Notes under the pieces: generated by a model | Seen by the model: the letters and a program-made list of their open reading frames with translations, nothing else | What the model was told of the DNA's origin: nothing | Databases searched by the model: none | Program-made: the position numbers and the translations under genes | Virus record (IMG/VR): IMGVR_UViG_2703718788_000009 | From: a virus | Taxonomy: Duplodnaviria; Heunggongvirae; Uroviricota; Caudoviricetes | Length of the DNA stretch: 13,879 nt | Strand: one strand, 5' to 3' | Part shown: in pieces, positions 121-13,564 of the stretch | How the letters are laid out: each line of letters opens with the position of its first letter | Position numbering within the stretch: position 1 is the first letter of the stretch

Positions 121-121
121 T

Positions 122-307: not shown

Positions 308-308
308 A

Positions 309-2438
309 ATGGCAATGAAGGAAGTCGCCAGACTAACAAACGTTATTTACTGGGATTCTGATAAATCCTCCTGGCGAAAAGAAGTTAAACGGCTTGAGGA
401 TTATAAAAAATCCTGGAAGAAAGCCACCGACGATATTGCTAAAGCTGATTTTAAGTCTAATCAGGCTGTGCTCAGAACACAAAGAACACGCGCTAAGGTG
501 GAAGAGCAGATCGCCAGAGCACAGAAGAAACAACGTGCTCAGGCTGTCAGCCGTCTGACCGGAGGCAATAATCCGGAGCTCTCCTCTATGCGCAAGTTCT
601 ATCAGCAGCAAGCCAGAGAAGCCGCCAGACAACAAAAACTGTTAGATCGTAGTGTTGGAGATGTTCAGCACAGAAAAGCACGTGTAGGGGCCAACAGTGC
701 ACGAATCAGCAGCATGTTTGATGGCTCTCTGGTTGCTCAGTTCCAATCCAGAATTCAGAGAGTTAATGCTGATTATGCTAAAGGGGCTATCAACCTGCAG
801 ACCTATAATCAGAAAATGGCCCGACTCAGAGCTGAAATGAAGATGGCATCTAGAGATGCCACCACCTTTCAAGGCAAGCTAGATAAACTGGCAGCAGGTG
901 CGAGCAAGGTGCATAACAATATCGGCAAGCTTAACAGTGCTTTAGGCAAGATAGCCATTGGCCTGACCGCTGCGGGATGGGGTATTCAGAGAGCTGTCAG
1001 CAGTGCTATGAGCGCTCAATCTGACCATAACTCAGCCTATTATGGTTTGCTTGCTCAGAACAAGGATGATAAAGCCAAGACTGACCAACAGATGGCTTTT
1101 ATCGACAGAATCTCTAACGATTATGGGATGGATCAGCGTGAGGCTGAAGGCGGCTTTATGCGCTTTGCTGCAGCCACACCGAACGTAAAAGAGGGTGATA
1201 AACAGGCTCTCTTTGAGGCTATGGCTATTAAAGGTCGCTCAGTGGGTGCTACTGCGGACCAACAGAACAGGGCTATCGTTGCACTAGGGCAGATCTATAG
1301 CAAGGGCGGTCGAGTGTATGCGGAAGAGCTTAAGGGCCAACTTTCTGAAGCCCTGGCAGGCTCTCAGGTAGATTTCACCCGTGCGGCTATCGATGCCGGA
1401 ATCATCAAGAAAGAGGAAGAATTTAATAAAGCCCTTGAAGATGGCAAGATCACCATGGACAAGCTTCTTCCCTCTCTGGTGAAAATTTGGGGTGCTGCAA
1501 AAGAAACTGACGCTTTTGCTAAATCCATGCAGCAGCCAGAGGTGGCACTGCAGAGAATGAGCAACCAGTTTTTTAAACTAAAGCAATCCTTTATGGGTGT
1601 TGTTGATCCAACTGATAACGTTATTACCCTTTCTGAATCCCTGATCTACATCTTCGAAGACTTATCATCAATTTTCAGCGGCTCAGGTGAAGATGCCAAA
1701 TCACTGGGGGTTATGCTGGGTGAGGCAATGGATACAGTTTACACCCGTGCAGTTTGGGCTATTTGGTGGATTAAGAAGATCGCTAAAGAAATCGGTGAGA
1801 TGTTCAATCTGACCGCACAGGATGCAGGAAGTTGGATAGGCACAATTGTTACCGCTATCATGGGCCTGAAGGTTGCTGGAAGCGTGGCAGGCATGGTGGG
1901 CGGCCTTATCTCTATGCTGTGGAAGCTTGGATCAGCGATCAAGGCTTTATTAGTTGGTGGCGGTGTTGGTGATATCAGCACTGGGGGCACACCAGGTAAG
2001 GGCAAACCAGGTAAAGGCGGTTTAATCGGGAAAGTAGGCAGACTGGGAAGGTTTGCAGGTCCGGCTGCAGTTATTGCTACCGGATTCGATATTGCTAATG
2101 GTCTGGATGCATACTGGCAGAATCCTGATAATCAGCGACAGGAAGGAGTTAAACACCCGGAATGGCTAACCAGCATAGTTAATGGTGCTTCTAGCTTCCT
2201 CGGCCTTGATTATCGTCTCGATGCAGGACGCTACATTACCAGACCAACACCGACGGGTGGAATGGCTATTCAGAATGGTGGCTATCAACCAGTTCAGGTA
2301 AATGTAGTTCCACAAGGTGAGATTTCCGGCAAATGGGAGATAACCATTGATGAGGGTGGAATTGCCAGGGTGATCCAGAAGGAAGTCAGCGATCAGTTGG
2401 ATTGGAAAGCCACACAGGAATCTAATCAGCTTTTCTAA
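309..2438 (+). CDS. phage tail tape measure protein (lambda gpH-like)
   Basis: 709-aa ORF with SD 'gaggt'. Charged, Ala/Gln/Lys-rich N-terminal half, two hydrophobic helices (WIGTIVTAIMGLKVAGSVAGMVGGLISMLW), then a Gly-rich segment (GGGVGDISTGGTPGKGKPGKGG). The segment EEFNKALEDGKIT resembles lambda gpH 'EELNKALKDGKIL', recalled from memory and not verified. Confidence 0.75.
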   Translation: MAMKEVARLTNVIYWDSDKSSWRKEVKRLEDYKKSWKKATDDIAKADFKSNQAVLRTQRTRAKVEEQIARAQKKQRAQAVSRLTGGNNPELSSMRKFYQQQAREAARQQKLLDRSVGDVQHRKARVGANSARISSMFDGSLVAQFQSRIQRVNADYAKGAINLQTYNQKMARLRAEMKMASRDATTFQGKLDKLAAGASKVHNNIGKLNSALGKIAIGLTAAGWGIQRAVSSAMSAQSDHNSAYYGLLAQNKDDKAKTDQQMAFIDRISNDYGMDQREAEGGFMRFAAATPNVKEGDKQALFEAMAIKGRSVGATADQQNRAIVALGQIYSKGGRVYAEELKGQLSEALAGSQVDFTRAAIDAGIIKKEEEFNKALEDGKITMDKLLPSLVKIWGAAKETDAFAKSMQQPEVALQRMSNQFFKLKQSFMGVVDPTDNVITLSESLIYIFEDLSSIFSGSGEDAKSLGVMLGEAMDTVYTRAVWAIWWIKKIAKEIGEMFNLTAQDAGSWIGTIVTAIMGLKVAGSVAGMVGGLISMLWKLGSAIKALLVGGGVGDISTGGTPGKGKPGKGGLIGKVGRLGRFAGPAAVIATGFDIANGLDAYWQNPDNQRQEGVKHPEWLTSIVNGASSFLGLDYRLDAGRYITRPTPTGGMAIQNGGYQPVQVNVVPQGEISGKWEITIDEGGIARVIQKEVSDQLDWKATQESNQLF

Positions 2439-2448
2439 TATTGTGATC

Positions 2449-2469
2449 TAAATCAATAAGTTAGCCTAA
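2449..2469. repeat. copy 1 of 20-bp repeat 'aaatcaataagttagcYtaa'
   Basis: Matches 8341..8360 at 19 of 20 positions; both copies lie downstream of the stop of a plus-strand gene. Confidence 0.7.
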
Positions 2470-2485
2470 CCGGATAAACTCCAGG

Positions 2486-2521
2486 CAAGAAAAAAGCCCC
2501 TAAGTGTTAACAAAGGGGCTC
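2486..2521. terminator. intrinsic terminator-like hairpin, strong on the minus strand, weaker on the plus strand
   Basis: Perfect 7-bp stem agcccct (2495..2501) / aggggct (2514..2520) with a 12-nt loop. The minus strand reads a U5 run after the stem; the plus strand is followed by a pyrimidine-rich 'cttctccggtatcctttt'. Confidence 0.5.
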
Positions 2522-2550
2522 TTCTCCGGTATCCTTTTGATGCGGGGCAA

Positions 2551-2598
2551 AACCTGCTAACAAAAATCAACCTCTCGCGAGACTAATGTTAGCAGGTT
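2551..2598. other. perfect 12-bp inverted repeat (aacctgctaaca / tgttagcaggtt) around a 24-nt loop that carries the 'caacctctcgc' motif
   Basis: Direct reverse-complement match within the ORF-free region between the convergent operons. Confidence 0.6.
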
Positions 2599-2939
2599 GC
2601 CGGAAGGTAAGTCAACTCCGGCCTATAAACCTTAAAGCGACTATAAAATTGCCCCGCCAATTGTGATGATCCGACCTTTGAGGCGGGTCCGGTGCCCAGG
2701 GGGTGCAGTGATGCACAAACCAGGCAACGATAAACAGGCTAACAGTGATAGCGGCGCTCAATCAGCGCACTAAATCCTAACCAGTCCGGGAAAGAGGCTG
2801 GCTCTATCGACCGCTCATGCACGGGACAATGCATACCTGATAAAGGATTCTCACAAGGGACCAATCGCGAGAAAAGAAGTGGAAAGGGGCTGATTTGTGG
2901 TGTATCACTACGGCCTCAAAAGAACACTATTGTCTTTTT

Positions 2940-3392
2940 TCAGCCTCTCCCAACATTTGACCAGTATTTGATTGCACCGATCAAATCATCATAGTGGCGC
3001 ATTGCATCATTGAAGCCTTTATAGCTTGCCCATTGTGGTGAAACTTTGTTATTGCTGAATTGCCCACTAATCAGGATAGTCTCCAAAATGTCGGCGTATC
3101 GCTTGCCAATTCGCTTTCTGACGGCCTCAGAGCTCCCACCCTTTACGATTGCATTAATCAGGGCTTTTGTGTGTCTCAGGCTCTCATAGAGCATTGCAGC
3201 GTGGGCAGATTCCATAAAGGAGCGCTTAGGCAGATCACCCCACCCCTCAGAATGGATAGCCGCCAGTGTGGCGTAATTCAGGCCGCTATAGTGTTTCCCG
3301 TCATCCCAGCCAACCGCTACACCTTCCATCTGTGAGAGCTCTTTATGCAGCTTATCCATCATGCGCTTGTCTATGGTGCAACGGACTTTCAT
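2940..3392 (-). CDS. hypothetical protein, possibly virion morphogenesis or head-tail joining
   Basis: 150-aa ORF whose ATG overlaps the upstream gene's stop in an ATGA arrangement (translational coupling). It is the last gene of the minus-strand structural operon. The functional guess rests on context only. Confidence 0.5.
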   Translation of the reverse strand: MKVRCTIDKRMMDKLHKELSQMEGVAVGWDDGKHYSGLNYATLAAIHSEGWGDLPKRSFMESAHAAMLYESLRHTKALINAIVKGGSSEAVRKRIGKRYADILETILISGQFSNNKVSPQWASYKGFNDAMRHYDDLIGAIKYWSNVGRG

Positions 3393-4168
3393 TTTGTAGC
3401 ATCCTTGGCAAACTTGGCCTGCCTTTGCTGTTTCCAGGCGCTATCAGCTGCGTCATAGTTGCCGCCGTTTTCCTCTAACAACGTGTTAAAATCTTTAGTC
3501 TTAGCCGATGGGGTGTTGGTTGAGTTCCCTACGTTGCTATTCTTCTCAGCACTGTTAACAGCACCCTTTTGCTGTGTTTTGTTCACCTTCTTGCTGTTAG
3601 TGAAGACTCCGGCATTTTCGACCATCTTCACCTTGAAGGTGCGGAATTCTTCAAAGGTGCAATCAATAGTGATGCAGTCACCAGAGGAAGAGCTACGCTT
3701 AACTTCACATTTCGTCATGATGAAGTTCTCAAGGAGTCCGGCATCTTCACTTACCAGGCTAACAAGCTGGCGCTTGTCTCTCATTTCCATAAGTGCCTGA
3801 ACAGCGGCGGCAGGGCGCATAGATTCACGGGGATTATCTGGATCAGTGTTCCGGTCAATGTAGTTCTCTTTCCGGATGATATGAGGAGAAGAGGTAACAA
3901 TACCCGTAAAGCTGACAGATTTATCTTTAATGACGGCATGGTCTGACATGGTGGTGCCATCCTCGACCGCATAGCTCGATTTCTCAACAGGGAACGAATA
4001 GCTGACATCAGAGATAGAGTCAAAGAAGATAGCCACGTTATCGGTATAGTTGAAGCCATCCATTATATTTTTGTTTTGTGAATATCCCCCACACATAACA
4101 GTGAATGCAGGAGATCTCGATTCAGCTTGTTTTGCAGCTGTCAGAGCATCACTAGCCATATTAAACAT
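3389..4168 (-). CDS. hypothetical protein, possibly a virion structural component
   Basis: 259-aa ORF. A GGAGG sits 1 nt before the first ATG and about 10 nt before the second ATG (4159), so the true start is probably 4159 (MASDALT...). Ser/Thr/Asn-rich, with a Lys/Asn-rich low-complexity C-terminus. Confidence 0.55.
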   Translation of the reverse strand: MFNMASDALTAAKQAESRSPAFTVMCGGYSQNKNIMDGFNYTDNVAIFFDSISDVSYSFPVEKSSYAVEDGTTMSDHAVIKDKSVSFTGIVTSSPHIIRKENYIDRNTDPDNPRESMRPAAAVQALMEMRDKRQLVSLVSEDAGLLENFIMTKCEVKRSSSSGDCITIDCTFEEFRTFKVKMVENAGVFTNSKKVNKTQQKGAVNSAEKNSNVGNSTNTPSAKTKDFNTLLEENGGNYDAADSAWKQQRQAKFAKDATK

Positions 4169-4264
4169 GCCTCCAAAATGAATCTTTTCGTTGCCCTGCT
4201 TAAAATCTGCAGAAAATACAGGGCAGTTATTCGTTAGAATCGCTTATAGCTCTTCCCGAGAGCG

Positions 4265-4525
4265 TTATTTTGCAAAACGATTATGGGCATTCAGGGCTTT
4301 TTTGCGGTCCTGGGCTTGTTTGCGTGCAATAAAATGTTCGAAAGTCTCGGCCCAGGTGCATTTATTATATTCACGGTATTTATGCATAGCCTGGCGGCTA
4401 ACGTCATAGCAGGCGGAAAATGTGGAGATACGCAGGAATTCCGGCAGATCCTCGTCATCGATATGGATAATATCAAAAGGCACGTCGTCACGGTCGCCGT
4501 ATAAAACAATTTTCATAAAAGACAC
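4265..4525 (-). CDS. hypothetical small acidic protein (about 83 aa from the ATG at 4516)
   Basis: The track start at 4525 is GTG; the ATG at 4516 has SD 'gaggtg' 6 nt upstream. First gene downstream of repeat copy B. Confidence 0.5.
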   Translation of the reverse strand: MSFMKIVLYGDRDDVPFDIIHIDDEDLPEFLRISTFSACYDVSRQAMHKYREYNKCTWAETFEHFIARKQAQDRKKALNAHNRFAK

Positions 4526-4548
4526 CTCAAAAACTTAAGACGGGGATT

Positions 4549-4595
4549 ATGAGTCCTTCCAGGACCTTAGCTAAAGCTAAGCCCTTTGGGTCTGT
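4549..4595. repeat. 47-bp repeat, copy B
   Basis: See copy A (57..103). Lies between the capsid-gene terminator and the next minus-strand gene. Confidence 0.85.
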
Positions 4596-4602
4596 GGATA
4601 AT

Positions 4603-4663
4603 AAAAAAGGGAAGAGGGAAAGACCTATCCCCGATCTCTCACCTCTTCCCTTTGCTTTTATTT
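4603..4663. terminator. bidirectional rho-independent terminator downstream of the capsid gene
   Basis: 9-bp stem gggaagagg (4609..4617) / cctcttccc (4642..4650) with a 24-nt loop; flanked by A6 (4603..4608, a U6 run on the minus strand) and 'tttgcttttattt' (4651..4663). Confidence 0.65.
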
Positions 4664-4679
4664 GGCCTTCGAAGAAGGT

Positions 4680-5729
4680 TTATTTAGCCTTGGCTTTTGC
4701 CAGAGCAGCGGCGGCGGCGTTTTTAACACTCACTTTAACCACAACTTCGGGCATCATGTTCATGAAAGCATAAGAGGATTCAACGAAGATTTCTCGTTTG
4801 GCTCTGGACTCTTCCATATACATGAAAGCTTCACGTGCAGCGCCGTTTGCAAGCTTCAGGTTGCGAGCGCAAGGGCCGAAAAATTGAGTATAAACGCCCA
4901 CCATATCGCCTAACGCATGCGGCTGGAACTGTGGGACCAGATAAGCAGTATTCTCTGGCAGACTATCCATTTGCACCACACGCAGAGCTAAGCCTGGAAT
5001 GCGGAAAGTCGGGAAGCCCGGCAGAATATCCTCAGGGAACATCAGACCTTTATCAGTGATATTCTGATTGCCGAACAACAGCACTTTTCGCAACAGTTCA
5101 TCAGTCTGAATTGCAGCAAAGAGCTCAGCACGGCAGAACAGGGTGAAACCACGCAGAGCGCGAACGACACCACGCTGTTTAACCTTGCTCAGCGCAACCA
5201 GGTCCTGCAGCTGTTTAAGGATATCTTTAGCTAAATCCACTTCTGAGGTGGTTTGCTGTGCGCCCAGCAGTTCGCACACATTCAGTTCTTTACCCTTGGT
5301 GAGGATAATTTTGTTCTCAAAGAGAGCAAGCTGGCGTGCTTCTTCATGGGTCTGGCGTAAGCCTTCACCAAGCTGAATAACACGACGAGCGGTTACAGAC
5401 TCTAAATTCTCTTCGGAATCTTTGCCCGGAACACGGATACCCTGCCAGTCAGAAGGATAAATAGCACTTGATGCGGCAGTGAATGCCATATCACCCGTGC
5501 CCGTTTCACGCTCATCTGCGGTAATGGTAGCCATCTGTTCACCGTAGCGCGGATACTGACCGAAAGCGGTTTGTTTCACCTGGCGAACTTTGTCATATTC
5601 AAATTTAAAGGTATTGCACAGAGCAGTAGTGTTGAAGATATCCATTGCTGAAATAATCTGGTTATCCAGCGGGATGTCTTTAATCAAGCCACACAGATCG
5701 CGGACTTCGAATTCTTTTTTCATCTCCAA
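4680..5729 (-). CDS. major capsid protein (lambda gpE-like)
   Basis: The likely start is the ATG at 5723 with AAGGAGG 6 nt upstream; the track start at 5729 is TTG. The segment SLPENTAYLV and the C-terminal 'REIFVESSYAFMNMMPEVVVKVSV' resemble lambda gpE 'FLPDNTMVLG' and 'REFTMIQSAPLMLLADPDEFVSV', recalled from memory. About 347 aa, preceded by a small beta-rich protein. Confidence 0.7.
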   Translation of the reverse strand: MEMKKEFEVRDLCGLIKDIPLDNQIISAMDIFNTTALCNTFKFEYDKVRQVKQTAFGQYPRYGEQMATITADERETGTGDMAFTAASSAIYPSDWQGIRVPGKDSEENLESVTARRVIQLGEGLRQTHEEARQLALFENKIILTKGKELNVCELLGAQQTTSEVDLAKDILKQLQDLVALSKVKQRGVVRALRGFTLFCRAELFAAIQTDELLRKVLLFGNQNITDKGLMFPEDILPGFPTFRIPGLALRVVQMDSLPENTAYLVPQFQPHALGDMVGVYTQFFGPCARNLKLANGAAREAFMYMEESRAKREIFVESSYAFMNMMPEVVVKVSVKNAAAAALAKAKAK

Positions 5730-5734
5730 CCTCC

Positions 5735-6070
5735 TTATTGTGCAACACGCAAATCGCCATTGCTGGCAGCGATAACAGCGGCTAAGCCTTCTTTATCCAC
5801 GTAGGCCGGATTGATATAACAGCCCTTGTTGGCAACAACGATAAAAGCATCACCAACCTCAGCACGTTCTACAACCAGCAGCGGAGTTTTACCGGTGTGC
5901 GTTGCTTTAACGAAGGTCTCAACCTCGCCAGCCTCAGTCACCACAACAACAGTGCCAGCCGGAATCTCAGCTTTAACTTTGTTTTTAATTTCAACGTCGC
6001 GAATACTAAATTGCTCATCTGCGGCGTATGAAATGATGTGTCCGCGTGTGCGGATAGTCATATCTCTCAT
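5735..6070 (-). CDS. putative head decoration or auxiliary capsid protein (by position)
   Basis: 111-aa ORF whose TAA stop overlaps the capsid gene's SD. Val/Thr/Gly-rich and beta-like. The assignment is positional (lambda D-E order), not from sequence identity. Confidence 0.45.
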   Translation of the reverse strand: MRDMTIRTRGHIISYAADEQFSIRDVEIKNKVKAEIPAGTVVVVTEAGEVETFVKATHTGKTPLLVVERAEVGDAFIVVANKGCYINPAYVDKEGLAAVIAASNGDLRVAQ

Positions 6071-6195
6071 TTGATCACCTGCGATTTAAATTAACTCCCC
6101 TCAAAGAGTTCCGGTATAACCTCTCAAACCACGACAGGCTCGGGCCGAAAAGTTATGCCGGAAATCTAAAGGGAAATTGATACAAGGAGAGGGAG

Positions 6196-6225
6196 ATAGC
6201 CCCGCACCGTCCAAGCGGGGGCTAT
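6196..6225. other. GC-rich stem-loop in the capsid-operon leader
   Basis: atagccccgc / gcgggggctat pairs as a roughly 10-bp stem with one bulge and a 9-nt loop. No U-tract on either strand, so not a classic terminator. Confidence 0.35.
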
Positions 6226-6548
6226 TCCACATGGGGAAACCGACAACAGTCGGATGATAGTTCACAGTATGGGTTACGGTTACTAGAGAGCACTATCACG
6301 AAAGGCACTCCCCCGAATCAGTTCAGGCTGCGGTCACATCAGCGGGGAAATACCTTTCGGGATAGCTACCCACACAGAAAACCCGCAAAAGAAAACTGTG
6401 TGGATAACTAGCCCAATAGGAGAATTAATCGACCACTCAACGATGATCAGGGTAGTGTTATTTATAAGGCGGCACCGCTACCTGGTCGCCTTTACTTTGG
6501 AGGAAAATACGGCAAATCACTTTCACCATTGATTTACGGTATATGTAT

Positions 6549-6577
6549 ATTATATCAGTATTCTCTCAAATTGTCAA
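6549..6577 (-). promoter_or_regulatory. perfect-consensus sigma70 promoter (TTGACA-N17-TATAAT) on the minus strand, directed at the capsid operon
   Basis: The reverse complement of 6549..6577 reads TTGACA atttgagagaatactga TATAAT, with an AT-rich stretch upstream. Predicted start near 6540, about 470 nt before the ATG at 6070. Confidence 0.6.
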
Positions 6578-6841
6578 CACCCTGATTATATAAATTCTAA
6601 TAATTAGCGTAGTAACGGTATTTTCAGACTGCTATCAATCCCATCAATACGTCACCCCCACCCTTTAGATGCATACATCCGACCTACTTTGTAGGCTTGG
6701 CGTACTGCCAAGGTCGAAGCTATGCGACTCATATCTATCACCACTTTATAAAGCTTGATAGATATCTTTTGATCAATATCAATGTTTTCCGGGGATTTAC
6801 CCGGCTATAGTTCGAATCAAGGAAGGGGAGCATTGATAGAG

Positions 6842-6890
6842 ACACCCAAAGGGGTGACTGAAAGTCACCTGGCATAGCCAGTGAAAGCAC
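6842..6890. repeat. 50-bp repeat, copy A (palindromes GGTGAC-N5-GTCACC and CTGGC-N3-GCCAG)
   Basis: About 42 of 49 positions match 12072..12120; lies about 45 bp upstream of the ATG at 6934. Confidence 0.8.
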
Positions 6891-6933
6891 CCAACCGAAC
6901 AAACAAATCAACTTCTCGCAAAAGGTGATAGTT

Positions 6934-7056
6934 ATGGGTATCAAGAACAGTGCCAGCGCATGGCAAAAGGCCAGGTTTCATCACCCACACATTGTTAAGG
7001 CAATTGAGGTGGTTGGAGTGTTAGCCCTGATGTTAGCTCTGTGTGTGGAGGTGTGA
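6934..7056 (+). CDS. small hydrophobic peptide (41 aa), first ORF of a plus-strand module
   Basis: ATG at 6934 with SD 'aaggtga'; MGIKNSASAWQKARFHHPHIVKAIEVVGVLALMLALCVEV, with a C-terminal transmembrane-like helix. A second 26-aa peptide (7058..7138) follows with SD GGAGG. Below the ORF-track threshold. Confidence 0.3.
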   Translation: MGIKNSASAWQKARFHHPHIVKAIEVVGVLALMLALCVEV

Positions 7057-7157
7057 GATGGGCAAAGGAGGCAAAGCATTTTTAATAGGTCTGGCAGTCT
7101 TAGATTTTGTATTAATCATCATTGAGCGGAGTTTATGAACAGCATTGAGAGGAGTTT

Positions 7158-7418
7158 ATGACGGGGGCTAAAGATATCAGGAGATTGAGGGAAGAGCTGA
7201 TAGCTGAAATTAAAGCTAAGGCAAAGCAAATGGAGATAGCCGCACAAATGGATGTAGCGGAACAGATGTACAAGATGGTTGAAGAGGGAACACCACGGCA
7301 GGTTATAGCAAAAACATTTGGTGTGGGGATCGCCACCGTGCACAGAAGGCTGAAAGCCTATGCCGACTACCACAATATCGAGAGAAAGGAGGATGGGAGA
7401 TTTAAGAAGAATAAATAG
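7158..7418 (+). CDS. small DNA-binding protein with a helix-turn-helix motif
   Basis: 86-aa ORF with SD 'gagagg'. The motif TPRQVIAKTFGVGIATVHRRLK looks like an HTH of the resolvase or IS3 OrfA type; the N-terminus looks coiled-coil. Confidence 0.6.
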   Translation: MTGAKDIRRLREELIAEIKAKAKQMEIAAQMDVAEQMYKMVEEGTPRQVIAKTFGVGIATVHRRLKAYADYHNIERKEDGRFKKNK

Positions 7419-7475
7419 TAGGAACAGTCCAACAGGTTATTAACTAAATTCAACTTCTCGCAAAGAGGTACCATT

Positions 7476-8162
7476 ATGTTTAAAGGTCTTGTTGTTACGC
7501 TATTGGCTTGCATTGTATTTGGTCCATGGGTGTTAGTAATTGCTTTACCTATATTGCTGATCATGAGCTTAGGGAATGATATTAAAAAGCTGCAAAAGCT
7601 GCATGCACAATATAAGGAGAATCCCGGCGCGTTCATGGTAAGTCTGGTTATAGTCGCGGGGCTTATTGGATGGGTGTATTTCTCCCTCCCCACAGGAAAT
7701 ACAACTGCAAATGTAGAAGAGGCCGCAGTGGTAGAGGAAAAAGCCAACAAAGGATTCAGATTTATTGTTGGTGTGGATAGCCCAGTATATGGCCCTGAAG
7801 CTGTGGATCCTGCAATGGTGCATGCCTGGTTATGGAACAGAACGGAGAAAGGTAGCTGCAATCAACTAAAAGCGAGCGCCAACATAGAAGAGGAAGGAGA
7901 TACATTTTTCGCATGGTGTAAAGATATCAAAGGCAATGATAGGTGGTTTACCATTACCAATATTGTAGGTGTTTCCCGTTCACTAATGAATCACCCTGAG
8001 GCTAAGAATCCGCTAACAGGTGTCCGATTAAAAGATGGCCCAATATGGATCGATTTATACGGAACACAAATCACTGAGGGCGTGAACAGCGATATCCAGG
8101 ATAAGCTGAAAGACATAAATAATCAGTATGGTGCGATTGTTGAAACCTCTCCTATGAAATAA
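7476..8162 (+). CDS. membrane protein with two N-terminal transmembrane helices and a roughly 150-aa C-terminal domain, possibly superinfection exclusion
   Basis: 228-aa ORF with SD 'agagg'. Hydrophobic segments at about residues 5..30 and 53..70, separated by a Lys-rich loop. Function is a hypothesis. Confidence 0.6.
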   Translation: MFKGLVVTLLACIVFGPWVLVIALPILLIMSLGNDIKKLQKLHAQYKENPGAFMVSLVIVAGLIGWVYFSLPTGNTTANVEEAAVVEEKANKGFRFIVGVDSPVYGPEAVDPAMVHAWLWNRTEKGSCNQLKASANIEEEGDTFFAWCKDIKGNDRWFTITNIVGVSRSLMNHPEAKNPLTGVRLKDGPIWIDLYGTQITEGVNSDIQDKLKDINNQYGAIVETSPMK

Positions 8163-8182
8163 CCACACCTACCCAACCTACC

Positions 8183-8216
8183 AGGGCCACCACTTAGGAT
8201 GGCCCTTTTTATTTAT
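8183..8216 (+). terminator. rho-independent terminator of the 6934..8162 module
   Basis: 7-bp stem agggcca / tggccct with a 10-nt loop, followed by 'ttttatttat', 21 nt after the stop codon. Confidence 0.7.
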
Positions 8217-8220
8217 GTGC

Positions 8221-8280
8221 TATTTAATACCCATTTATCCCCTATTTAATGCCTATTTATTGATTTAATCCGTTTTATGC
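8221..8280. repeat. phased TATTTA(A/T) repeats at roughly 11-bp spacing; possibly bent DNA or an architectural-protein site
   Basis: tatttaatacc / atttatcccc / tatttaatgcc / tatttattgat / ttaatccg / ttttatgcc in succession. Confidence 0.4.
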
Positions 8281-8340
8281 CACAACCGCCCGGTTGACAG
8301 AGTAAGAGAGAGGGTGTAACCCTTTTTCGTAATACTAATA

Positions 8341-8360
8341 AAATCAATAAGTTAGCTTAA
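8341..8360. repeat. copy 2 of 20-bp repeat 'aaatcaataagttagcYtaa'
   Basis: See 2449..2469. Confidence 0.7.
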
Positions 8361-9368
8361 TAAGCCTTTTCTCTATTTTTGTCAAATTTAACATACCCTA
8401 AAAAACTGCAAAATCTGACTGCAAGATTATCTGCAGCTGGATTTCTTACACCTCAATTTGTGGTATCACCCTGACTAGTTTGTGCATAAAATGAACAGTT
8501 TTTAACATTTCCTATTCACCTGGTAACCACACAAAAAGCTAAAAACGAGGCACAGATAATCTTAGAGGCCTGTTTTCTTGTTATCACTATGGGAACGTCG
8601 TAGAAGTGATTTTGATGAAAGATGACCTACCCTATTACACCCCCATTTTTTGTTATCACAATTGCATCCTGTGCGGTATATGGCTGTGTGCTGAAAGCGG
8701 TCTTGGGTGTGGGTGTCAGAAATATCCATTAGCGGTATTAATACCCGTCAGATGTTCGTCTGAGGTGCCAGGCAGGCGCTCCCCCACCTCCCTTTTTTCT
8801 TCTAACAATTCTCAAATATCACACCACTGCCCACCACGTTGCTATTATGTTAATTCTTAAGCTTTGCTGTATGTTGTGCACATTATTTATTCAGGTGCGT
8901 GTACGTAAATTCTGGGCCTCCTTATCATGATTTTTAAATCAGATTTTGTAGTGCGCTTTATTAGTGTAGATAAGATCTATTATGTTAAATGCAATTTTCC
9001 CAACCCTTCAAATCAATGACTTACATGTAAGCATGCACTAACACCCCACACAGCACATTAGACGTGTAGATGTCTATATCCCACATTTTTGATTGTTTTG
9101 TAGTCATTCCCCTGATCATTTAACCAGTATAGTTTGCTATCTGCAGACCACAAAATCGGAATTTACATCTGATTAACATAATCTGTTAGCATGATCACCA
9201 TTACCCACACAACAATAACCCCATGCAAGCCTCTTTAGGCAATTTATCGGCGTGTTGGTGTGAACAGTCTTTCATGTTCTTTATGTATTCATGACTGCAA
9301 GGAATGTATTCATTGGCCTGTGTGGGGGAAGGATGGACTGCCCCAGGGGCCATACTTATGATGCCCGG

Positions 9369-9404
9369 TCAACATAAGTGTTGATAAAATCAAGGGGTGT
9401 TGAT
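9369..9404. promoter_or_regulatory. pair of adjacent inverted repeats (TCAACA-N4-TGTTGA and ATCAA-N6-TTGAT); candidate operator
   Basis: Both have perfect arms; they sit just upstream of the iteron cluster. Confidence 0.4.
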
Positions 9405-9426
9405 CTGCATATTTCCCACACATGAG

Positions 9427-9456
9427 AGGAAATCAGAGCAAAGAGAGAGGAGAGAG
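9427..9456. repeat. polypurine (GA-rich) tract
   Basis: A 30-nt run of almost only A and G on the plus strand. Confidence 0.5.
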
Positions 9457-9465
9457 GTTTGTTAG

Positions 9466-9520
9466 TCAAAATCAAGTCACATTAGAGTCAAATCAAGTCA
9501 AATCAGATGCAATCAATCCC
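9466..9520. repeat. cluster of 'aatcaagtca'-type direct repeats
   Basis: gtcaaaatcaagtca, gtcaaatcaagtca, aatcagatgca, aatcaatccc in tandem. Confidence 0.6.
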
Positions 9521-9521
9521 C

Positions 9522-9586
9522 CACCTGTTGGGATTTCCCACATGTTCAACCATACACAGGAGCTAACCTGTTGGGATTTCCTACAC
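9522..9586. repeat. two copies of 'acctgttgggatttccYaca', 45 bp apart
   Basis: 9522..9541 and 9567..9586 are near-identical. Confidence 0.7.
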
Positions 9587-9639
9587 CTCTTGCACATACC
9601 CCGGAAGATTTTTCCGGTGTGCCATCTTTGCAGGCTCCA

Positions 9640-9807
9640 ACCTGTGAAGAATTTTCACACCTGTAAATCCATACAGCACGGTAAAAACTACCGCACCACC
9701 TGTCAAAATATTTTACTACCCCACCAATAATACGGCCCATACCTGTAAAATATTTTTACTACTACCTGTCAAAATCTTTTACTACTACCTGTAAAAATAT
9801 TTGACAC
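9640..9807. repeat. iteron array with ACCTGT core (part of the candidate replication origin)
   Basis: ACCTGT occurs at 9640, 9659, 9698, 9741, 9764 and 9787, plus 9523 and 9566 in the preceding repeat. The last four sit in units of about 23 bp, 'acctgt(c)aaaatattttactac', three of them directly tandem. Confidence 0.7.
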
Positions 9808-9839
9808 TAATAGATAAAGTAACAGACCACACAATAGAT

Positions 9840-9865
9840 CCCCCCCTAACCCCCCCCCCAGGGGG
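9840..9865. repeat. homopolymer tracts C7-TAA-C10-A-G5, bracketed by GATC sites
   Basis: Read directly: gatcccccccctaacccccccccaggggg, with GATC at 9837..9840 and 9876..9879. Confidence 0.8.
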
Positions 9866-9902
9866 AATGGGGAGGGATCAGAGAGTGGGGAAGGTTTATC
9901 AA

Positions 9903-10027
9903 TATATCAAATTGATATACTTAGCTAGATGTATCAATTAATACACTTAAAGGTGAGCAATGCTTAGCTAGATGTATCAATCCGATACACTTAGAATATT
10001 CTAGATGTATCAATTAATACACTTAAA
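9903..10027. repeat. 17-bp perfect palindrome followed by three direct repeats of about 30 bp
   Basis: Palindrome tatatcaa-a-ttgatata at 9903..9919; repeats 'ctagatgtatcaat..atacactta' at 9920..9951, 9963..9994 and 9999..10027. Confidence 0.75.
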
Positions 10028-10906
10028 TCACGTAACTTATTGTATTTATTAAGAAAAGTCATCTACCTATATATACTACTGATTCGCCTCCGCTCATCAT
10101 TAGTATGGTGTAACTGATTCATGCTTCGCTTACGCTCACATTCATCTACTTACACCCCCTTATCTGAATTGAACATTCCCGTCCAATCCAGCTAAGAGAA
10201 TTGATTGAACATTACCTAACATCCGTTAGCTAACATTCTAATCAATTAACTACTTAAACACTTCCACACCTTCCGGTGGTGCCAAGTAACCTGGCATGGT
10301 GGGAAAAGATTCTGCCGTTTTAGGTAGAATTGATTTCCCACAAATAGTAAGTGTCGGCCCTTCAATGTCACTCTCCTATGAGGGGAGAGATGACGGGCCT
10401 CCTGTGTGGGTGAGTATCGGAGCAGTCTGTGAAGTATGAGCAGGCTGTGAGATACGCTACTGTATATCTGCGTAGAACAGCCTCCGCTGTTTACGCTCTT
10501 TGTGTGGTCCGGCGAATGCGTCAGCATGAGGCCCACATGTGGACCGCTGCCGAAAGCTTGCCAGCGCCGGAAGGAGGCAGCAAAGAGTCTCCCGCGCTCA
10601 TGTGTGGGCGTATACGTAAGATATACATTCATAAATCCAATCCTAGGCCCCTAAATGGCCTTCTGGCTGCATTAACCTGTGTGAGTAGTGCAATTGCATT
10701 ACCTGATGCTTAAATCGCGTTGTAGGGCCTCTCATAGAGAATTTAACTATCAAGATAAAAATTGCAGATCGGTCTATTGACAATCTTATTGCATAAATGC
10801 TATAAGTTATTCTGGTTTTGACACGGTAGGGGCCATTAATAATGCTTACCCCCTTTGCTGTGGACTTGCTTGCACCTATAGCACACCTAAATGATAATAA
10901 TTCTCA

Positions 10907-10935
10907 TTGACAATTGGTTGACAATATGATAAGAT
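10907..10935 (+). promoter_or_regulatory. candidate sigma70 promoter (TTGACA-N17-TAAGAT) upstream of a small ORF
   Basis: Consensus -35 at 10907..10912, a 4-of-6 -10 at 10930..10935, and a second overlapping TTGACA at 10918. Confidence 0.35.
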
Positions 10936-10970
10936 TATAAATAGGGGGAGAAACAGATCCGGAGGTCAAT

Positions 10971-11120
10971 GTGGAAATTACTGATGCAATAGCGATCATC
11001 AACCTGGCTGTACTGTGGTGCGGTGTTGCCTACATAGCCGGAGTAACTGCAATAGACAATCTTGAAGAAAAAATGATAGATAAATACAAAAAGATTGTTG
11101 ACAATTTGACGAATGTTTGA
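10971..11120 (+). CDS. small membrane protein (49 aa, GTG start), possibly holin-like or toxin-like
   Basis: GGAGG 5 nt upstream of the GTG; VEITDAIAIINLAVLWCGVAYIAGVTAIDNLEEKMIDKYKKIVDNLTNV has one transmembrane-like helix and a charged C-terminal tail. Absent from the ORF track. Confidence 0.3.
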   Translation: MEITDAIAIINLAVLWCGVAYIAGVTAIDNLEEKMIDKYKKIVDNLTNV

Positions 11121-11126
11121 TAAAAT
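11098..11126 (+). promoter_or_regulatory. strong sigma70 promoter (TTGACA-N17-TAAAAT) for the leader and Rep operon
   Basis: -35 at 11098..11103, a 17-nt spacer, -10 at 11121..11126. Confidence 0.6.
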
Positions 11127-11176
11127 ATAAAGCATAGGGTAATTCTCAGCATGTGAATTTTCCTTAAACAGACTAG

Positions 11177-11206
11177 CGGGGCTTGTCTTGAGTCCCGTTT
11201 CTTTTT
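11177..11206 (+). terminator. intrinsic terminator or attenuator in the leader between the promoter and the first operon gene
   Basis: Stem cggggc / gtcccg (one G-U pair) with a 9-nt loop, followed by 'tttcttttt'. It lies about 45 nt after the predicted start and 44 nt before the ATG at 11250. Confidence 0.55.
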
Positions 11207-11249
11207 AAACCTACATCGCACAGGCGATGAGCTGACAGGAGATTGAATC

Positions 11250-11459
11250 ATGGCTAAAACCGGACCGATAAGCCAGCTGGTAAACTGGACTACTGACGAA
11301 ATCGTCGAGAACGTGCTTAAAGGTAACTTTCGCAAAACTTCCGTTTATGCATTTATTCGAAAACACAAAGGAGAATATCCACACATTGAAGCGGCAATAG
11401 AAAAATTAAACTTTATTAAACTTGAGCGCCAGCTTGAAAGATATAAACACCTACTTTAA
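11250..11459 (+). CDS. hypothetical small basic protein, possibly a regulator; first gene of the Rep operon
   Basis: 69-aa ORF with SD 'aggag' 8 nt upstream. Confidence 0.55.
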   Translation: MAKTGPISQLVNWTTDEIVENVLKGNFRKTSVYAFIRKHKGEYPHIEAAIEKLNFIKLERQLERYKHLL

Positions 11460-11495
11460 TAAAAGGTAACCGTAACCCGGTAAGAGGTAAACATT

Positions 11496-12410
11496 ATGAA
11501 TATTGAGTCTGTTTTTAATATAACTTTAAATGATGATCCTAGTATCCTTTTGCTGCCAATGCTCATAAATAAATCTGGACTATTAAAAAGAGGCGACGCA
11601 AGGGATATCTATATTTACATGTGGAATACTTACTATCTCCACGCTAAAAAAGAGGCCGCCAAGGTGTTCAGCAAGAAGACTAAAGGAAGAAGCCTCAGCC
11701 AGGATATGAAAAACTCCATCAGAAAAGAGTGTTTTGCTATTAAAGATAAAGATTCCTGTGTGGAGATCTCTTATAAGGATATAGAGGAAAGAATTGGAAT
11801 ACTGCGACCAAATGCAGTAAGGGCAATTAAAAAGCTGGAATCTGAAGGAATTATCACCTGCCTTAAAAAAGGCAATAAGCATAACCCTTATGCATCATGG
11901 CAAATTAATGTCGGAATCTTTGAAATGATGGAAAGAGTAGGGATTGAAAACCTCATTGGGTGGGATCTCTTAAAACCATATTGGAAGAAAGAACAGGAAG
12001 CAGCCGGAAGAGGGGAGGGGGCCAAAGCTCCACAGGAAGCTCCAAAACAAGCCGCACAGCAGCCTGAAGACACACCCGAAGGGGTGACCGTAGGTCACCT
12101 GGCTAAGCCAGCGAAAGAGTCCAAAGTGGTGCAATTCCCTTCTGTGAAAGATAAAGACGTTAGCGTAGAGCACAACTCTTATTCCGAAAGTGTGACAACG
12201 TCACCTGTTAAGGCAAACAAGAAGGAGGCATCTAAAGTGATAGATATTTCTTCTTTTATGGCAGATGAAGATGATACGCAAGATGTGTGGTATACACCTT
12301 CAGAAAATGATTATAGTGGTAGTGGTGGTTATGATCCTTATGGCTATGATGAGGATGAATACAACCCATTTGAAGATGAATATACAAATGATTCCGCTAT
12401 CCCTTATTAA
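11496..12410 (+). CDS. putative replication initiator (winged-helix, lambda-O/RepA-like N-terminal domain) with a long disordered acidic C-terminal tail
   Basis: 304-aa ORF with SD 'agagg'. The segment 'VEISYKDIEERIGILRPNAVRAIKKLESEGIITC' resembles the winged-helix DNA-binding domain of lambda O 'RITDSQLSEITKLPVKRCNEAKLELVRMNII', recalled from memory. The C-terminal 140 aa are low-complexity and end in ...EDEYTNDSAIPY. Confidence 0.55.
   Translation: MNIESVFNITLNDDPSILLLPMLINKSGLLKRGDARDIYIYMWNTYYLHAKKEAAKVFSKKTKGRSLSQDMKNSIRKECFAIKDKDSCVEISYKDIEERIGILRPNAVRAIKKLESEGIITCLKKGNKHNPYASWQINVGIFEMMERVGIENLIGWDLLKPYWKKEQEAAGRGEGAKAPQEAPKQAAQQPEDTPEGVTVGHLAKPAKESKVVQFPSVKDKDVSVEHNSYSESVTTSPVKANKKEASKVIDISSFMADEDDTQDVWYTPSENDYSGSGGYDPYGYDEDEYNPFEDEYTNDSAIPY
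12072..12120. repeat. 50-bp repeat, copy B, embedded in the Rep-like coding sequence
   Basis: Matches 6842..6890; encodes ...TPEGVTVGHLAKPAKE... in the disordered tail. Confidence 0.8.
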
Positions 12411-12498
12411 TACCCCCAAATAAACTAAATAAACTAAACATAGAATTACTAGAACTAGATTGATTGCCCTGATCTTTTAAACGTTCGGAGAATTAATC

Positions 12499-12987
12499 AT
12501 GTTCAAATCTGATCTTTCTGATTCCCAATTTGAAAAACTGGTAGCACTGCAGAAATATCTCCCCAGTGATGATCAACCAACACGACAGGCTAAACACTTA
12601 TTAGTCGAGGGCTTTACCCCTGAATTCGTGGCGGAATACACAGGCGTTAAACTTGAGAAAGTCCAAAAACTATATAATGAGTCCTGGAATCCACGGTGTC
12701 GAGTTCCCCTCAGTGTCTACAACGAAATAGACAGAGATAGAAATGTCTTCGAAGATCGCCGCCGCAAATCTCTTTTAATGTGGAATTGTGGGATGAATAT
12801 TGAAGAGATAGCAAAAGAATTAAAAGTAACCTGCTTTCATATCTGGGGCTTGTTGAGTGAAATCCTGCCACGTAAGGAGCTTAATCAACGTTTGCCTAAG
12901 CCCGGCAGTCGTGCTTATCGCGAATTTATATTCATCTACCGCCGCCATAGCAATAAAGTCCGGAAAGCAATGGCCCAGAAAGCCTAA
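12499..12987 (+). CDS. DNA-binding protein with two predicted helix-turn-helix motifs (regulator or small-terminase-like; unresolved)
   Basis: 162-aa ORF with SD 'ggag'. HTH-like segments FTPEFVAEYTGVKLEKVQKL and MNIEEIAKELKVTCFHIWGLL; basic C-terminus. Confidence 0.55.
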   Translation: MFKSDLSDSQFEKLVALQKYLPSDDQPTRQAKHLLVEGFTPEFVAEYTGVKLEKVQKLYNESWNPRCRVPLSVYNEIDRDRNVFEDRRRKSLLMWNCGMNIEEIAKELKVTCFHIWGLLSEILPRKELNQRLPKPGSRAYREFIFIYRRHSNKVRKAMAQKA

Positions 12988-13060
12988 GTTTTATCTCTTC
13001 GATTTATTTATTTTCGACTCACTTTAACCCCTTCCGGGGCTCTAATTTAAGGAATTCCAA

Positions 13061-13504: not shown

Positions 13505-13564
13505 GCTATTGATAAATAAGCACTCCCCATTTTTTGGGGGGTGCATCAATGAGAGGATATGCCT

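What the first reader, a model, noticed from the sequence alone, without database searches (positions are those of the whole stretch)
6905..7478. Conserved 5' leader 'aaatYcaacttctcgcaaaRgRgt' precedes two consecutive start codons at identical spacing
At 6905..6936 and 7445..7478 the motif 'caacttctcgcaaa' is followed by the SD and an ATG exactly 14 nt after 'ctcgc'. A third, diverged copy (2564..2584, 'caacctctcgcgag') sits in the loop of a perfect 12-bp inverted repeat. This looks like a duplicated promoter-proximal or translational-operator element, or an RNA processing site that generates matching 5' ends.
Basis: seen in the sequence. Interest (0 to 1): 0.5.

Follow-up and report, generated by a model that had tools for sequence, protein, structure and literature searches.

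The report
Shared mRNA leader with antisense partner
A 12-15 base sequence just ahead of the ribosome-binding sites of two genes on a small E. coli plasmid that carries phage capsid and tail genes is real and strictly conserved. Its third copy most likely encodes, on the opposite strand, a small antisense RNA that pairs with both leaders to control their translation.

Summary
AAATYCAACTTCTCGC occurs at 6905 and 7447, each with an ATG 14 nt after CTCGC. A third copy at 2564 lies in the 24-nt loop of a perfect 12-bp hairpin. Three matches are found where none is expected by chance.

The window is a circular element of about 13.86 kb. It resembles a plasmid-borne phage satellite: it has capsid, tape-measure, Dit-like and tail-completion genes but no terminase or portal match.

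Among relatives, 41 of 42 full-size contigs carry exactly three copies of the core TCAACYTCTCGC, all on one strand. Copies 1 and 2 always sit 0-3 nt from a Shine-Dalgarno sequence while their flanks diverge. That points to control of translation, not a promoter.

Copy 3 always lies next to an intrinsic terminator that reads on the minus strand. One sublineage has replaced its flanks entirely yet kept the 12-nt core, with no start codon after it.

Best model (about 0.5): a minus-strand RNA, either the 3'UTR of the capsid/tail operon or a small RNA, displays the anti-motif and pairs with both leaders. Transcription and any regulatory effect are untested.

The rivals are a purely cis-acting leader and a protein operator. 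The kind of control is known, but the architecture is new.

The parts
6903..6932 (+). Leader copy 1. The block ACAAATCAACTTCTCGCAAAAGGTGATAGT holds the motif (6905-6919) and the Shine-Dalgarno sequence AGGTGAT, ahead of the 40-aa ORF.
   Evidence: This is the longest perfectly conserved block in the alignment of the 860-nt intergenic region between clades A and B. It is essentially invariant in all relatives examined.
6934..7056 (+). Target gene 1: a 40-aa protein with a hydrophobic C-terminal segment.
   Evidence: It is 40 aa long in every relative and carries amino-acid substitutions, so it is a real gene. It has no Pfam or PHROG match.
7447..7470 (+). Leader copy 2: AATTCAACTTCTCGC, then AAA, then the Shine-Dalgarno sequence GAGGT. 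It is intercistronic, after the HTH gene stop at 7418.
   Evidence: Found. The core is conserved in clades A, B and D although the flanks cannot be aligned.
7476..8162 (+). Target gene 2: a 228-aa protein with N-terminal transmembrane or signal segments. It behaves as a swappable cassette that begins exactly at the ATG.
   Evidence: At least 3 different genes follow copy 2 in relatives. Similarity to other elements breaks at about 7480 and resumes at about 8203-8243.
8183..8210 (+). Intrinsic terminator that ends the rightward operon (AGGGCCA..TGGCCCTTTTT).
   Evidence: Read directly from the sequence.
6806..6811 (+). Candidate -10 element (TATAGT) of the rightward operon. The inverted repeat CCGGGG..CCCGG lies in the spacer upstream.
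   Evidence: This is a conserved island between clades A and B. It is an inference: the consensus scan did not call it.
2564..2578 (-). Copy 3. On the minus strand it reads GCGAGAGGUUGAUUU, the anti-motif. This is complementary to 6905-6919 (15 bp including one G.U pair) and to 7450-7461 (12 bp including one G.U pair).
   Evidence: Found. Clade D keeps the 12-nt core in a completely different context.
2551..2598 (-). Hairpin B: a perfect 12-bp stem with a 24-nt loop that displays the anti-motif.
   Evidence: Found. It is invariant in clades A and B.
2600..2621 (-). Hairpin A (CCGGA..TCCGG). Its loop contains GUUGACUU, which is complementary to the UCAAC half of the motif.
   Evidence: Found. 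Clade D has a hairpin with a different stem whose loop reads AGUUGA, and the shared stretch AAGTCAACTC spans that loop and the adjoining stem bases.
2542..2657 (-). Outer stem enclosing hairpins A and B: GCGGGGCAA at 2542-2550 pairs with TTGCCCCGC at 2649-2657.
   Evidence: One base pair covaries: A-U in 15 elements, G.U in 5, G-C in 9 and A.C in 1.
2487..2526 (-). Intrinsic terminator that reads on the minus strand (GAGCCCCU..AGGGGCUUUUUUCUU). It lies about 25 nt 3' of hairpin B.
   Evidence: Found. It gives a weak, sub-threshold Rfam match to ctRNA_p42d. The plus strand has no run of T after the stem.
2940..6070 (-). Leftward structural operon: a 111-aa gene, the major capsid protein, an 86-aa gene, the Dit-like gene and the tail-completion gene. 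Its 3'UTR (2939 down to 2487) would carry the anti-motif.
   Evidence: Gene calls and family matches. No strong terminator lies between 2940 and 2526.

Best explanation
The motif is an mRNA-level element that controls translation of two cistrons of one rightward operon. These are the first cistron (a 40-aa membrane peptide) and the last (a variable 228-aa exported or membrane protein).

Its partner is encoded by 'copy 3' on the opposite strand. Minus-strand RNA running out of the capsid/tail operon, or a small RNA made or processed from its 3' end, carries the anti-motif GCGAG(A/G)GUUGA(UUU). The anti-motif sits in a hairpin loop, or directly before the terminator hairpin in clade D, and the RNA ends at an intrinsic terminator.

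This RNA pairs with 12-15 nt of the C/A-rich stretch that abuts the Shine-Dalgarno sequence, at -29 to -15 from the AUG for copy 1 and -26 to -15 for copy 2. The most likely result is masking of a standby or enhancer region so that the 30S subunit cannot bind, which represses both genes when the structural operon is expressed. Activation by opening the weak motif:SD fold-back is the alternative direction.

Shown: the three copies, their conservation, their geometry relative to the SD and to the terminator, and the complementarity. Inferred: minus-strand transcription, pairing in vivo, and the sign of the effect.
For: 1. Three copies are found where none is expected. 41 of 42 full-size relatives have exactly three core copies, always on one strand.
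2. Copies 1 and 2 lie 0-3 nt from the SD in clades A, B and D. Meanwhile the upstream sequence, the leader length (about 60-115 nt) and the downstream gene all change. The 30-nt block around copy 1 is the longest perfectly conserved stretch of the 860-nt intergenic region.
3. In clade D (L173, L174) the flanks of copy 3 are replaced, yet TCAACTTCTCGC survives at the same convergent junction and on the same strand, 1 nt from the terminator stem. No SD or ATG follows it on the + strand, so it is not a relic start site.
4. In both contexts the adjacent G+C hairpin has its run of U only on the minus strand. The minus-strand operon ends at 2940 with no strong terminator before 2526.
5. Every natural variant keeps pairing. 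The anti-motif has G in clades A and B, where the leaders have U or C. It has A in clade D, where both leaders have U. L013 has a C-to-U change opposite a G.
6. The two leaders are the best + strand duplex sites for the loop in the whole window apart from copy 3's own, fully complementary locus (-41.1): -23.4 and -22.1 kcal/mol, against a background of -10.7 +/- 3.2.
7. No other complementary or identical sequence exists in 5,426 E. coli complete genomes or in the phage collections. If the motif pairs with an RNA, the element's own copy 3 is the only partner found in those collections.
Against: There are no expression data, so minus-strand transcription through copy 3 is inferred.

No convincing promoter for a separate small RNA was found. 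The best site in the window scores 9 of 12 (2667 to 2640) and lies inside the outer stem. None was found in clade D, where a plus-strand 49-aa ORF lies between the late operon and the anti-motif.

Duplex energy alone does not discriminate: several unrelated sites reach -21 to -22.9 kcal/mol, partly because the loop contains the palindrome UCUCGCGAGA.

The anti-motif is only about 30-50% unpaired in predicted ensembles.

Only about three variable positions or events bear on covariation, and all are transitions. The family is narrow and recombining.

G.U analysis of the flanking helices does not settle the strand. Pair 166-193 favours the minus strand clearly (0 versus 9 non-pairs) and pair 37-138 only slightly (3 versus 5). 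Pair 65-88 favours the plus strand.

All three copies are direct repeats, which is equally what a sense-strand protein site would look like.
Confidence: 0.5

Rival explanations
1. The motif is only a cis-acting leader module that tunes translation initiation. It would combine an unstructured C/A-rich standby or enhancer stretch with a pyrimidine tract that folds weakly onto the SD. It would have been duplicated when gene cassettes were inserted. Copy 3 would then serve some unrelated function of the highly conserved 450-nt junction, for example a packaging or terminator structure.
For: In 7 of 7 leader variants the motif's CUUCUC tract is predicted to pair with the SD purines. Duplicated start regions occur elsewhere in this family: a tandem CATTGAG(C/A)GGAGTTTATGA at 7120-7160, and an 18-nt duplicate of the Dit start region in L011. 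The cassette after copy 2 is exchanged exactly at the ATG.
Against: The fold-back hairpins are weak (-2.7 to -5.2 kcal/mol) and no better than shuffled sequence, with z from -1.1 to +0.4. This model does not explain why the same 12-nt core is kept at the convergent junction in two unrelated sequence contexts, with no SD or ATG after it in clade D.
Confidence: 0.2
2. All three sense copies are binding sites for one protein. The site could be RNA (a translational repressor that also binds the 3' region of the tape-measure mRNA) or double-stranded DNA (for example the 86-aa HTH_7 protein encoded between copies 1 and 2, acting as a roadblock or autoregulator).
For: The three copies are direct repeats on one strand and share an invariant 12-nt core. 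An HTH_7 protein is encoded in the same operon. In clades A and B copy 3 is presented single-stranded in a loop on either strand.
Against: The site is asymmetric with no dyad partner. Its fixed position against the SD has no rationale for a DNA roadblock. The T/C variation matches what G.U pairing tolerates. No RNA-binding domain was detected in the ORFs scanned against Pfam and PHROGs.
Confidence: 0.2
3. The motif is an RNA processing site for a host or helper-phage RNase. Cleavage would give the two cistrons matching 5' ends and would trim the tape-measure transcript.
For: The conserved single-stranded motif lies immediately 5' of the SD, and copy 2 is intercistronic.
Against: No recognisable cleavage consensus or adjacent structure is shared by the three sites. 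Nothing tested here bears on it directly.
Confidence: 0.06
4. The motif is a self-contained promoter for a helper-phage RNA polymerase or an alternative sigma factor. Transcripts would start at the purine run that doubles as the SD.
For: It is a 15-18-nt conserved block followed by a purine-rich stretch, superficially like the promoters of phage single-subunit RNA polymerases. That comparison is from my own knowledge, not a test.
Against: No sigma-70 match was found. The motif is absent from the phage records, from IMG/VR except for single chance hits, and from all other E. coli replicons. At copy 3 such a promoter would fire antisense into the tail genes. Transcripts would have leaders of only about 12 nt.
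Confidence: 0.04

Closest known systems
P1/P7 c4 antisense RNA acting on the icd-ant mRNA, and the P4 CI RNA (seqB pairing with seqA and seqC); described here from my own knowledge
   Same: A small structured RNA of a plasmid prophage or satellite carries a short sequence complementary to two separate sites in an early transcript of the same replicon. That RNA controls expression of the transcript.
   Different: In those systems regulator and targets are on the same strand and in the same transcription unit, so they appear as inverted repeats in the DNA. Here the copies are direct repeats, so the regulator must come from the opposite strand, at a convergent junction 4.3 kb away. There is no sequence or Rfam similarity. 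P4 CI acts by transcription termination, not at ribosome-binding sites.
3'UTR-derived and Hfq-type small RNAs that mask C/A-rich enhancer or standby sites upstream of the SD (GcvB with gltI; IstR-1 with tisB; CpxQ-type 3'UTR small RNAs); from my own knowledge
   Same: A G/U-rich seed lies next to an intrinsic terminator with a U tail. The target is a C/A-rich unstructured stretch just 5' of the SD, not the SD or AUG itself. One target is a small hydrophobic peptide gene, as with tisB.
   Different: Those are chromosomal and their dependence on Hfq is established. Here nothing is known about chaperones. In clades A and B the seed sits in an unusually large 24-nt loop closed by a 12-bp stem.
Type I toxin-antitoxin loci of plasmids (hok/sok)
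   Same: A small membrane peptide gene on a plasmid has an RNA complementary to its leader.
   Different: The antisense is not overlapping or adjacent. The same seed also targets a 228-aa gene. There is no Pfam or PHROG family match, and toxicity is untested.
T7 gene 10 'epsilon' translational enhancer (UUAACUUUA upstream of the SD); from my own knowledge
   Same: A short motif containing AACUU lies immediately 5' of the SD.
   Different: Only 6 of 9 positions match. Complementarity to 16S rRNA was not tested here. The enhancer model does not explain copy 3.

Membership tests
Trans-acting antisense RNA control of translation (functional class) | Contiguous complementarity between the regulator and the target near the start region | tested here: met
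   15 bp to leader 1 and 12 bp to leader 2, each with one G.U pair. In clade D both are 12 bp of Watson-Crick pairs.
Trans-acting antisense RNA control of translation (functional class) | The regulator strand has its own 3' end signal (an intrinsic terminator in the correct orientation) | tested here: met
   A G+C hairpin followed by UUUUUUCUU on the minus strand only. It lies about 25 nt 3' of hairpin B (about 38 nt from the anti-motif) in clades A and B, and 1 nt from the anti-motif in clade D.
Trans-acting antisense RNA control of translation (functional class) | Complementarity is maintained through evolution (covariation) | tested here: inconclusive
   All variants observed in 54 elements keep pairing. 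However, only three informative changes exist, and all are transitions tolerated as G.U pairs.
Trans-acting antisense RNA control of translation (functional class) | The regulator RNA is expressed and changes target expression | not testable with these tools
   No transcriptome or reporter data are available. Promoter prediction is weak.
Known antisense or small-RNA families in Rfam (c4, CI, ctRNA and others) | A match to a curated covariance model at its gathering score | tested here: not met
   The only hit is ctRNA_p42d at 23.6 bits against a gathering score of 50 (E = 0.25), and it lies on the terminator hairpin.
Sigma-70 promoter | -35 and -10 hexamers with 16-18 nt spacing at the motif | tested here: not met
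   No + strand site at 6905 or 7447. The only strong site in the region is on the minus strand, 6577 to 6549.
Helper-phage-specific promoter | The same motif recurs in a phage genome | tested here: not met
   No E. coli phage and no multi-copy contig was found in 50,697 phage records or IMG/VR. In E. coli complete genomes the motif occurs only on this plasmid family. An unsampled helper cannot be excluded.
Type I toxin-antitoxin | A small hydrophobic ORF, with the antisense RNA encoded overlapping or adjacent to it | tested here: not met
   The 40-aa ORF with a hydrophobic tail is present. The complementary sequence lies 4.3 kb away. No family match was found.
SD-sequestering leader hairpin (cis translational attenuator) | A stable, conserved structure that occludes the SD | tested here: inconclusive
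   The fold-back is predicted in 7 of 7 variants but is weak and no better than shuffled sequence.

The most novel reading that the evidence does not exclude
The window is a member of an undescribed family of autonomously replicating, plasmid-borne phage satellites of E. coli. These encode their own major capsid protein, tape-measure protein, Dit-like protein and tail-completion protein, but no terminase or portal match was found. Their structural (late) operon would use its own 3'UTR as a trans-antisense RNA to switch off, or on, two genes of the maintenance operon. That would be an RNA link between convergent operons that sets the element's state when a helper phage arrives.
Probability: 0.25. 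Interest if true: 0.7.

Novelty: new variant of a known kind. Interest (0 to 1): 0.45.

Why it matters
If the model holds, it gives a compact, testable case of a mobile element wiring its late (structural) operon to its early or maintenance genes through a 3'UTR-borne antisense seed that hits two start regions at once. One of those regions fronts a hot-swappable cargo gene, so any new cassette inserted at that ATG would come under the same control.

It also draws attention to the host element. This is a 13-14 kb E. coli 'non-mobilizable plasmid' family with capsid and tail genes. A 2025 review notes that only one plasmid phage satellite has been shown experimentally and that many others may exist (PMC12282955).

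If the model is wrong, the motif is still a well-defined cis element of 12 invariant bases, suitable for mutational study of translation control.

Tried and rejected
1. Helper phage or shared promoter. The motif, the capsid protein and the 506-nt junction were searched against the phage collection, and the motif and the junction also against E. coli genomes. The capsid protein and the motif were also searched in IMG/VR. No phage or other outside relative was found, and the 120 IMG/VR hits to the 15-mer are single chance matches unrelated to the window. The tape-measure protein has only about 24% identity to rV5-like myoviruses.

2. Distant relatives for covariation. The capsid family is very narrow: clusters are at least 81% identical, and the next relatives are at 42% and 30%. 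L010, L011 and L050 lack the motif. L010 also lacks the hairpin A/B segment. So there are no intermediate forms.

3. Strand assignment from G.U pairs in the helices around copy 3. The result is ambiguous: two pairs favour the minus strand and one favours the plus strand.

4. Duplex energy as a discriminator. The leaders rank first among + strand sites other than copy 3's own locus, but background sites come within 1-2 kcal/mol.

5. The 55-nt repeat at 57-111 and 4551-4605 as a second sense/antisense pair. Rejected: it is a palindrome-rich element that is present or absent sporadically among relatives.

6. Copy 3 as a cryptic start site for a 26-aa ORF (ATG at 2586). Disfavoured because clade D keeps the core without any SD or ATG.

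7. Literature searches for this plasmid family found no description.
Full report
OBSERVATION. CAACTTCTCGCAAA occurs exactly at 6909-6922 and 7451-7464. In both places CTCGC is followed by 14 nt and then an ATG, at 6934 and 7476. The third copy, AAATCAACCTCTCGC at 2564-2578, lies in the 24-nt loop of a perfect 12-bp inverted repeat with arms 2551-2562 and 2587-2598. Searching the 15-mer with at most one mismatch finds these three sites, all on the + strand. None of 200 dinucleotide-preserving shuffles gave any match. Two details need correcting. The two ATGs are not consecutive genes, because a 26-aa ORF and an 86-aa HTH_7 gene lie between them. The equal spacing is also not conserved in relatives, where it ranges from 13 to 17 nt.

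CONTEXT. Bases 1-21 repeat at 13859-13879, so the window is a circular element of about 13,858 bp. It is 90-94% identical to a handful of E. coli 'non-mobilizable' plasmids of 13.2-13.7 kb, found in 7 of 5,426 complete genomes.
- It encodes a tape-measure protein (309-2438, + strand).
- On the minus strand it encodes a tail-completion protein (2940-3392), a Dit-like protein (3389-4168), a major capsid protein (4680-5729) and two small proteins.
- It also has a replication initiator similar to lambda O (11496-12410) and iteron-like repeats.
- No terminase or portal match was found among the ORFs scanned.
It therefore looks like a plasmid-borne phage satellite. I found no description of this family in the literature. 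This classification is an inference.

OPERON ANATOMY. The two leaders belong to one rightward operon. A conserved island with the -10-like TATAGT (6806-6811) precedes it. Then come leader 1 with the motif, the 40-aa ORF, the 26-aa ORF, the HTH_7 gene, leader 2 with the motif, and the 228-aa ORF. An intrinsic terminator at 8183-8210 ends it. The gene after leader 2 is a cassette. Relatives carry at least three different genes there, and similarity breaks exactly at the ATG and resumes after the terminator.

CONSERVATION. I collected 54 related elements, 42 of them full-size contigs.
- Clade A is the window type.
- Clade B has a capsid protein 81% identical to the window's.
- Clade D is a sublineage with a diverged HTH gene.
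41 of the 42 full-size contigs have exactly three copies of the core TCAACYTCTCGC, always on one strand. The exception is a truncated locus. In the alignment of the 860-nt intergenic region between clades A and B, most of the sequence cannot be aligned. The 30-nt block ACAAATCAACTTCTCGCAAAAGGTGATAGT (6903-6932) is its longest perfect stretch. At copy 2 the flanks differ completely between clades, yet the core persists. In every case the motif ends 0-3 nt before the SD: CGC-AAA-AGGTGA, CGC-AAA-GGGGT, CGC-AA-AGGAGA, CGC-AGGAG. A 49-nt insertion or deletion 11 nt upstream of copy 1 is tolerated. This geometry ties the motif to translation. It does not fit a promoter, and no + strand sigma-70 site is present.

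COPY 3. In clades A and B it sits in hairpin B. Hairpin B, hairpin A (2600-2621) and an outer stem (2542-2550 paired with 2649-2657) form a compact structure. It is followed, on the minus strand only, by a canonical intrinsic terminator (2526 down to 2487, AGGGGCUUUUUUCUU). The whole 450-nt non-coding junction is about 97% identical between clades, whereas the capsid genes are about 72% identical at the DNA level. One pair of the outer stem covaries: A-U, G.U and G-C forms all occur.

The most informative case is clade D (L173, L174). There hairpin B and its flanks are gone. TCAACTTCTCGC is still present at the same convergent junction, on the same strand, one base from a G+C hairpin whose run of U is again on the minus strand. 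No SD or ATG follows it on the plus strand. So copy 3 is not a decayed start site. Its constant neighbour is a minus-strand terminator.

MECHANISM. Read on the minus strand, copy 3 is GCGAGAGGUUGAUUU in clades A and B, and GCGAGAAGUUGA in clade D. This is complementary to leader 1 over 15 bp and to leader 2 over 12 bp, each with one G.U pair in the window, and with Watson-Crick pairs only in clade D.
- The minus-strand capsid/tail operon ends at 2940 with no strong terminator before 2526. Its transcripts should therefore carry the anti-motif as a 3'UTR.
- All natural variants preserve pairing. Where the anti-motif has G, the leaders have U or C. Where it has A, both leaders have U. A C-to-U change in L013 lies opposite a G.
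- The leaders are the best + strand duplex partners of the loop in the window apart from copy 3's own, fully complementary locus (-23.4 and -22.1 kcal/mol, against a background of -10.7 +/- 3.2). Several unrelated sites come close, however.
- The paired region (-29 to -15 from the AUG at leader 1, -26 to -15 at leader 2) is C/A-rich. Its 5' half is predicted to be unpaired and its 3' half to fold weakly onto the SD.
I therefore favour, at about 0.5, a trans-antisense RNA that masks this pre-SD region and represses both cistrons when the structural operon is on. Activation by opening the weak motif:SD fold-back is the alternative direction.

WEAKNESSES. There are no expression data. Promoter predictions for an independent small RNA are poor. 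The anti-motif is only 30-50% unpaired in predicted ensembles. Few substitutions are informative. The G.U test for strand is split.

RIVALS.
- A purely cis-acting leader module (0.2) is supported by the predicted fold-back in 7 of 7 variants. That fold-back is no better than shuffled sequence, and the model leaves copy 3 unexplained.
- A protein operator on sense RNA or on DNA (0.2) fits the direct-repeat arrangement and the nearby HTH_7 gene. It gives no reason for the position against the SD or for the variation that G.U pairing tolerates.
- A processing site (0.06) is untested.
- A helper-specific promoter (0.04) is disfavoured. The motif is absent from 50,697 phage records, occurs in IMG/VR only as single chance hits, and occurs in E. 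coli only on this plasmid family.

COMPARISON WITH KNOWN SYSTEMS. In function this resembles P1 c4 with ant and the P4 CI RNA, where one structured RNA has two targets in the same replicon. It also resembles 3'UTR or Hfq-type small RNAs that mask C/A-rich regions upstream of the SD, such as GcvB and IstR-1 with tisB. These comparisons come from my own knowledge. It is not a member of any of those families. There is no Rfam match. The regulator is on the opposite strand 4.3 kb away, whereas c4 and CI lie in the same transcript as their targets. The 40-aa ORF matches no known toxin family.

VERDICT. The motif is real and under strong selection. It is a translation-linked leader element, not a promoter. 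It most probably works with an antisense partner encoded by its third copy. The kind of control is known, while the architecture and the host element are new. Interest is moderate, because the mechanism rests on comparative sequence evidence alone.

Noticed in passing
window 1-13879 (1-21 is identical to 13859-13879): The window is a complete circular element of about 13.86 kb. It carries capsid, tape-measure, Dit-like and tail-completion genes, a lambda O-like replication initiator and iteron-like repeats, but no terminase or portal match. Relatives are annotated as non-mobilizable E. coli plasmids (7 of 5,426 complete genomes, one apparently a trimer of 39.6 kb). It is probably an undescribed plasmid-type phage satellite, and no helper phage was identified.
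   Followed up: partly
window 2480-2940: This 450-nt non-coding junction between the convergent operons is about 97% identical between clades whose capsid genes are only about 72% identical at the DNA level. It is the best-conserved part of the element. It has no match in phages or elsewhere in E. coli. A packaging (cos or pac) site or a larger structured RNA are both possible.
   Followed up: partly
window 6549-6577 (minus strand): A perfect consensus sigma-70 promoter (TTGACA, 17 nt, TATAAT, with an upstream TG) points towards the capsid operon. It lies about 480 nt upstream of the first gene (start at 6070), which implies a long and presumably regulatory leader.
   Followed up: no
window 7476-8243: The gene after leader 2, together with its terminator, is a hot-swapped cassette with at least three unrelated N-terminal versions among relatives. 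The versions compared (this window and clade B) share an internal HAWLWN..KG.CNQ(I/L)KA stretch and have signal- or transmembrane-like N-termini. The function is unknown.
   Followed up: partly
window 6838-6894 and 12068-12124: A 57-nt hairpin-rich repeat (81% identity between copies). One copy lies inside the replication initiator gene. The other lies 11 nt upstream of leader 1, where it is an insertion/deletion polymorphism flanked by CACCCAA. It is present in the window, L003 and L004 and absent from the other clade A relatives inspected at this site and from clade B.
   Followed up: partly
window 57-111 and 4551-4605: A 55-nt repeat (89% identity) made of two palindromes (GTCCTTCCAGGAC and TTAGCTAAAGCTAA). 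One copy lies ahead of the tape-measure operon and the other lies between the capsid gene and the next gene. Its presence is sporadic among relatives, so it behaves like a small mobile or operator-like element.
   Followed up: partly
window 7120-7160: A tandem duplication of the HTH gene's start region, CATTGAG(C/A)GGAGTTTATGA, flanks the 3' end of the 26-aa ORF. That ORF is absent from clade B. This suggests genes are inserted here by recombination that duplicates the start region.
   Followed up: no
L011 1564-1581 and 3745-3762: A distant relative (capsid protein 30% identical) has a perfect 18-nt inverted duplicate of the Dit gene's SD and start codon region (AAGGGGAAAATGATGAAA) in its long intergenic region. 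It lacks the motif studied here.
   Followed up: no
window 9695-9808 and 9917-10027: Two arrays of direct repeats: four copies of about 23 nt (ACYACCTGTMAAAATMTTT...) and three copies of CTAGATGTATCAAT. They are probably origin iterons or partition sites.
   Followed up: no
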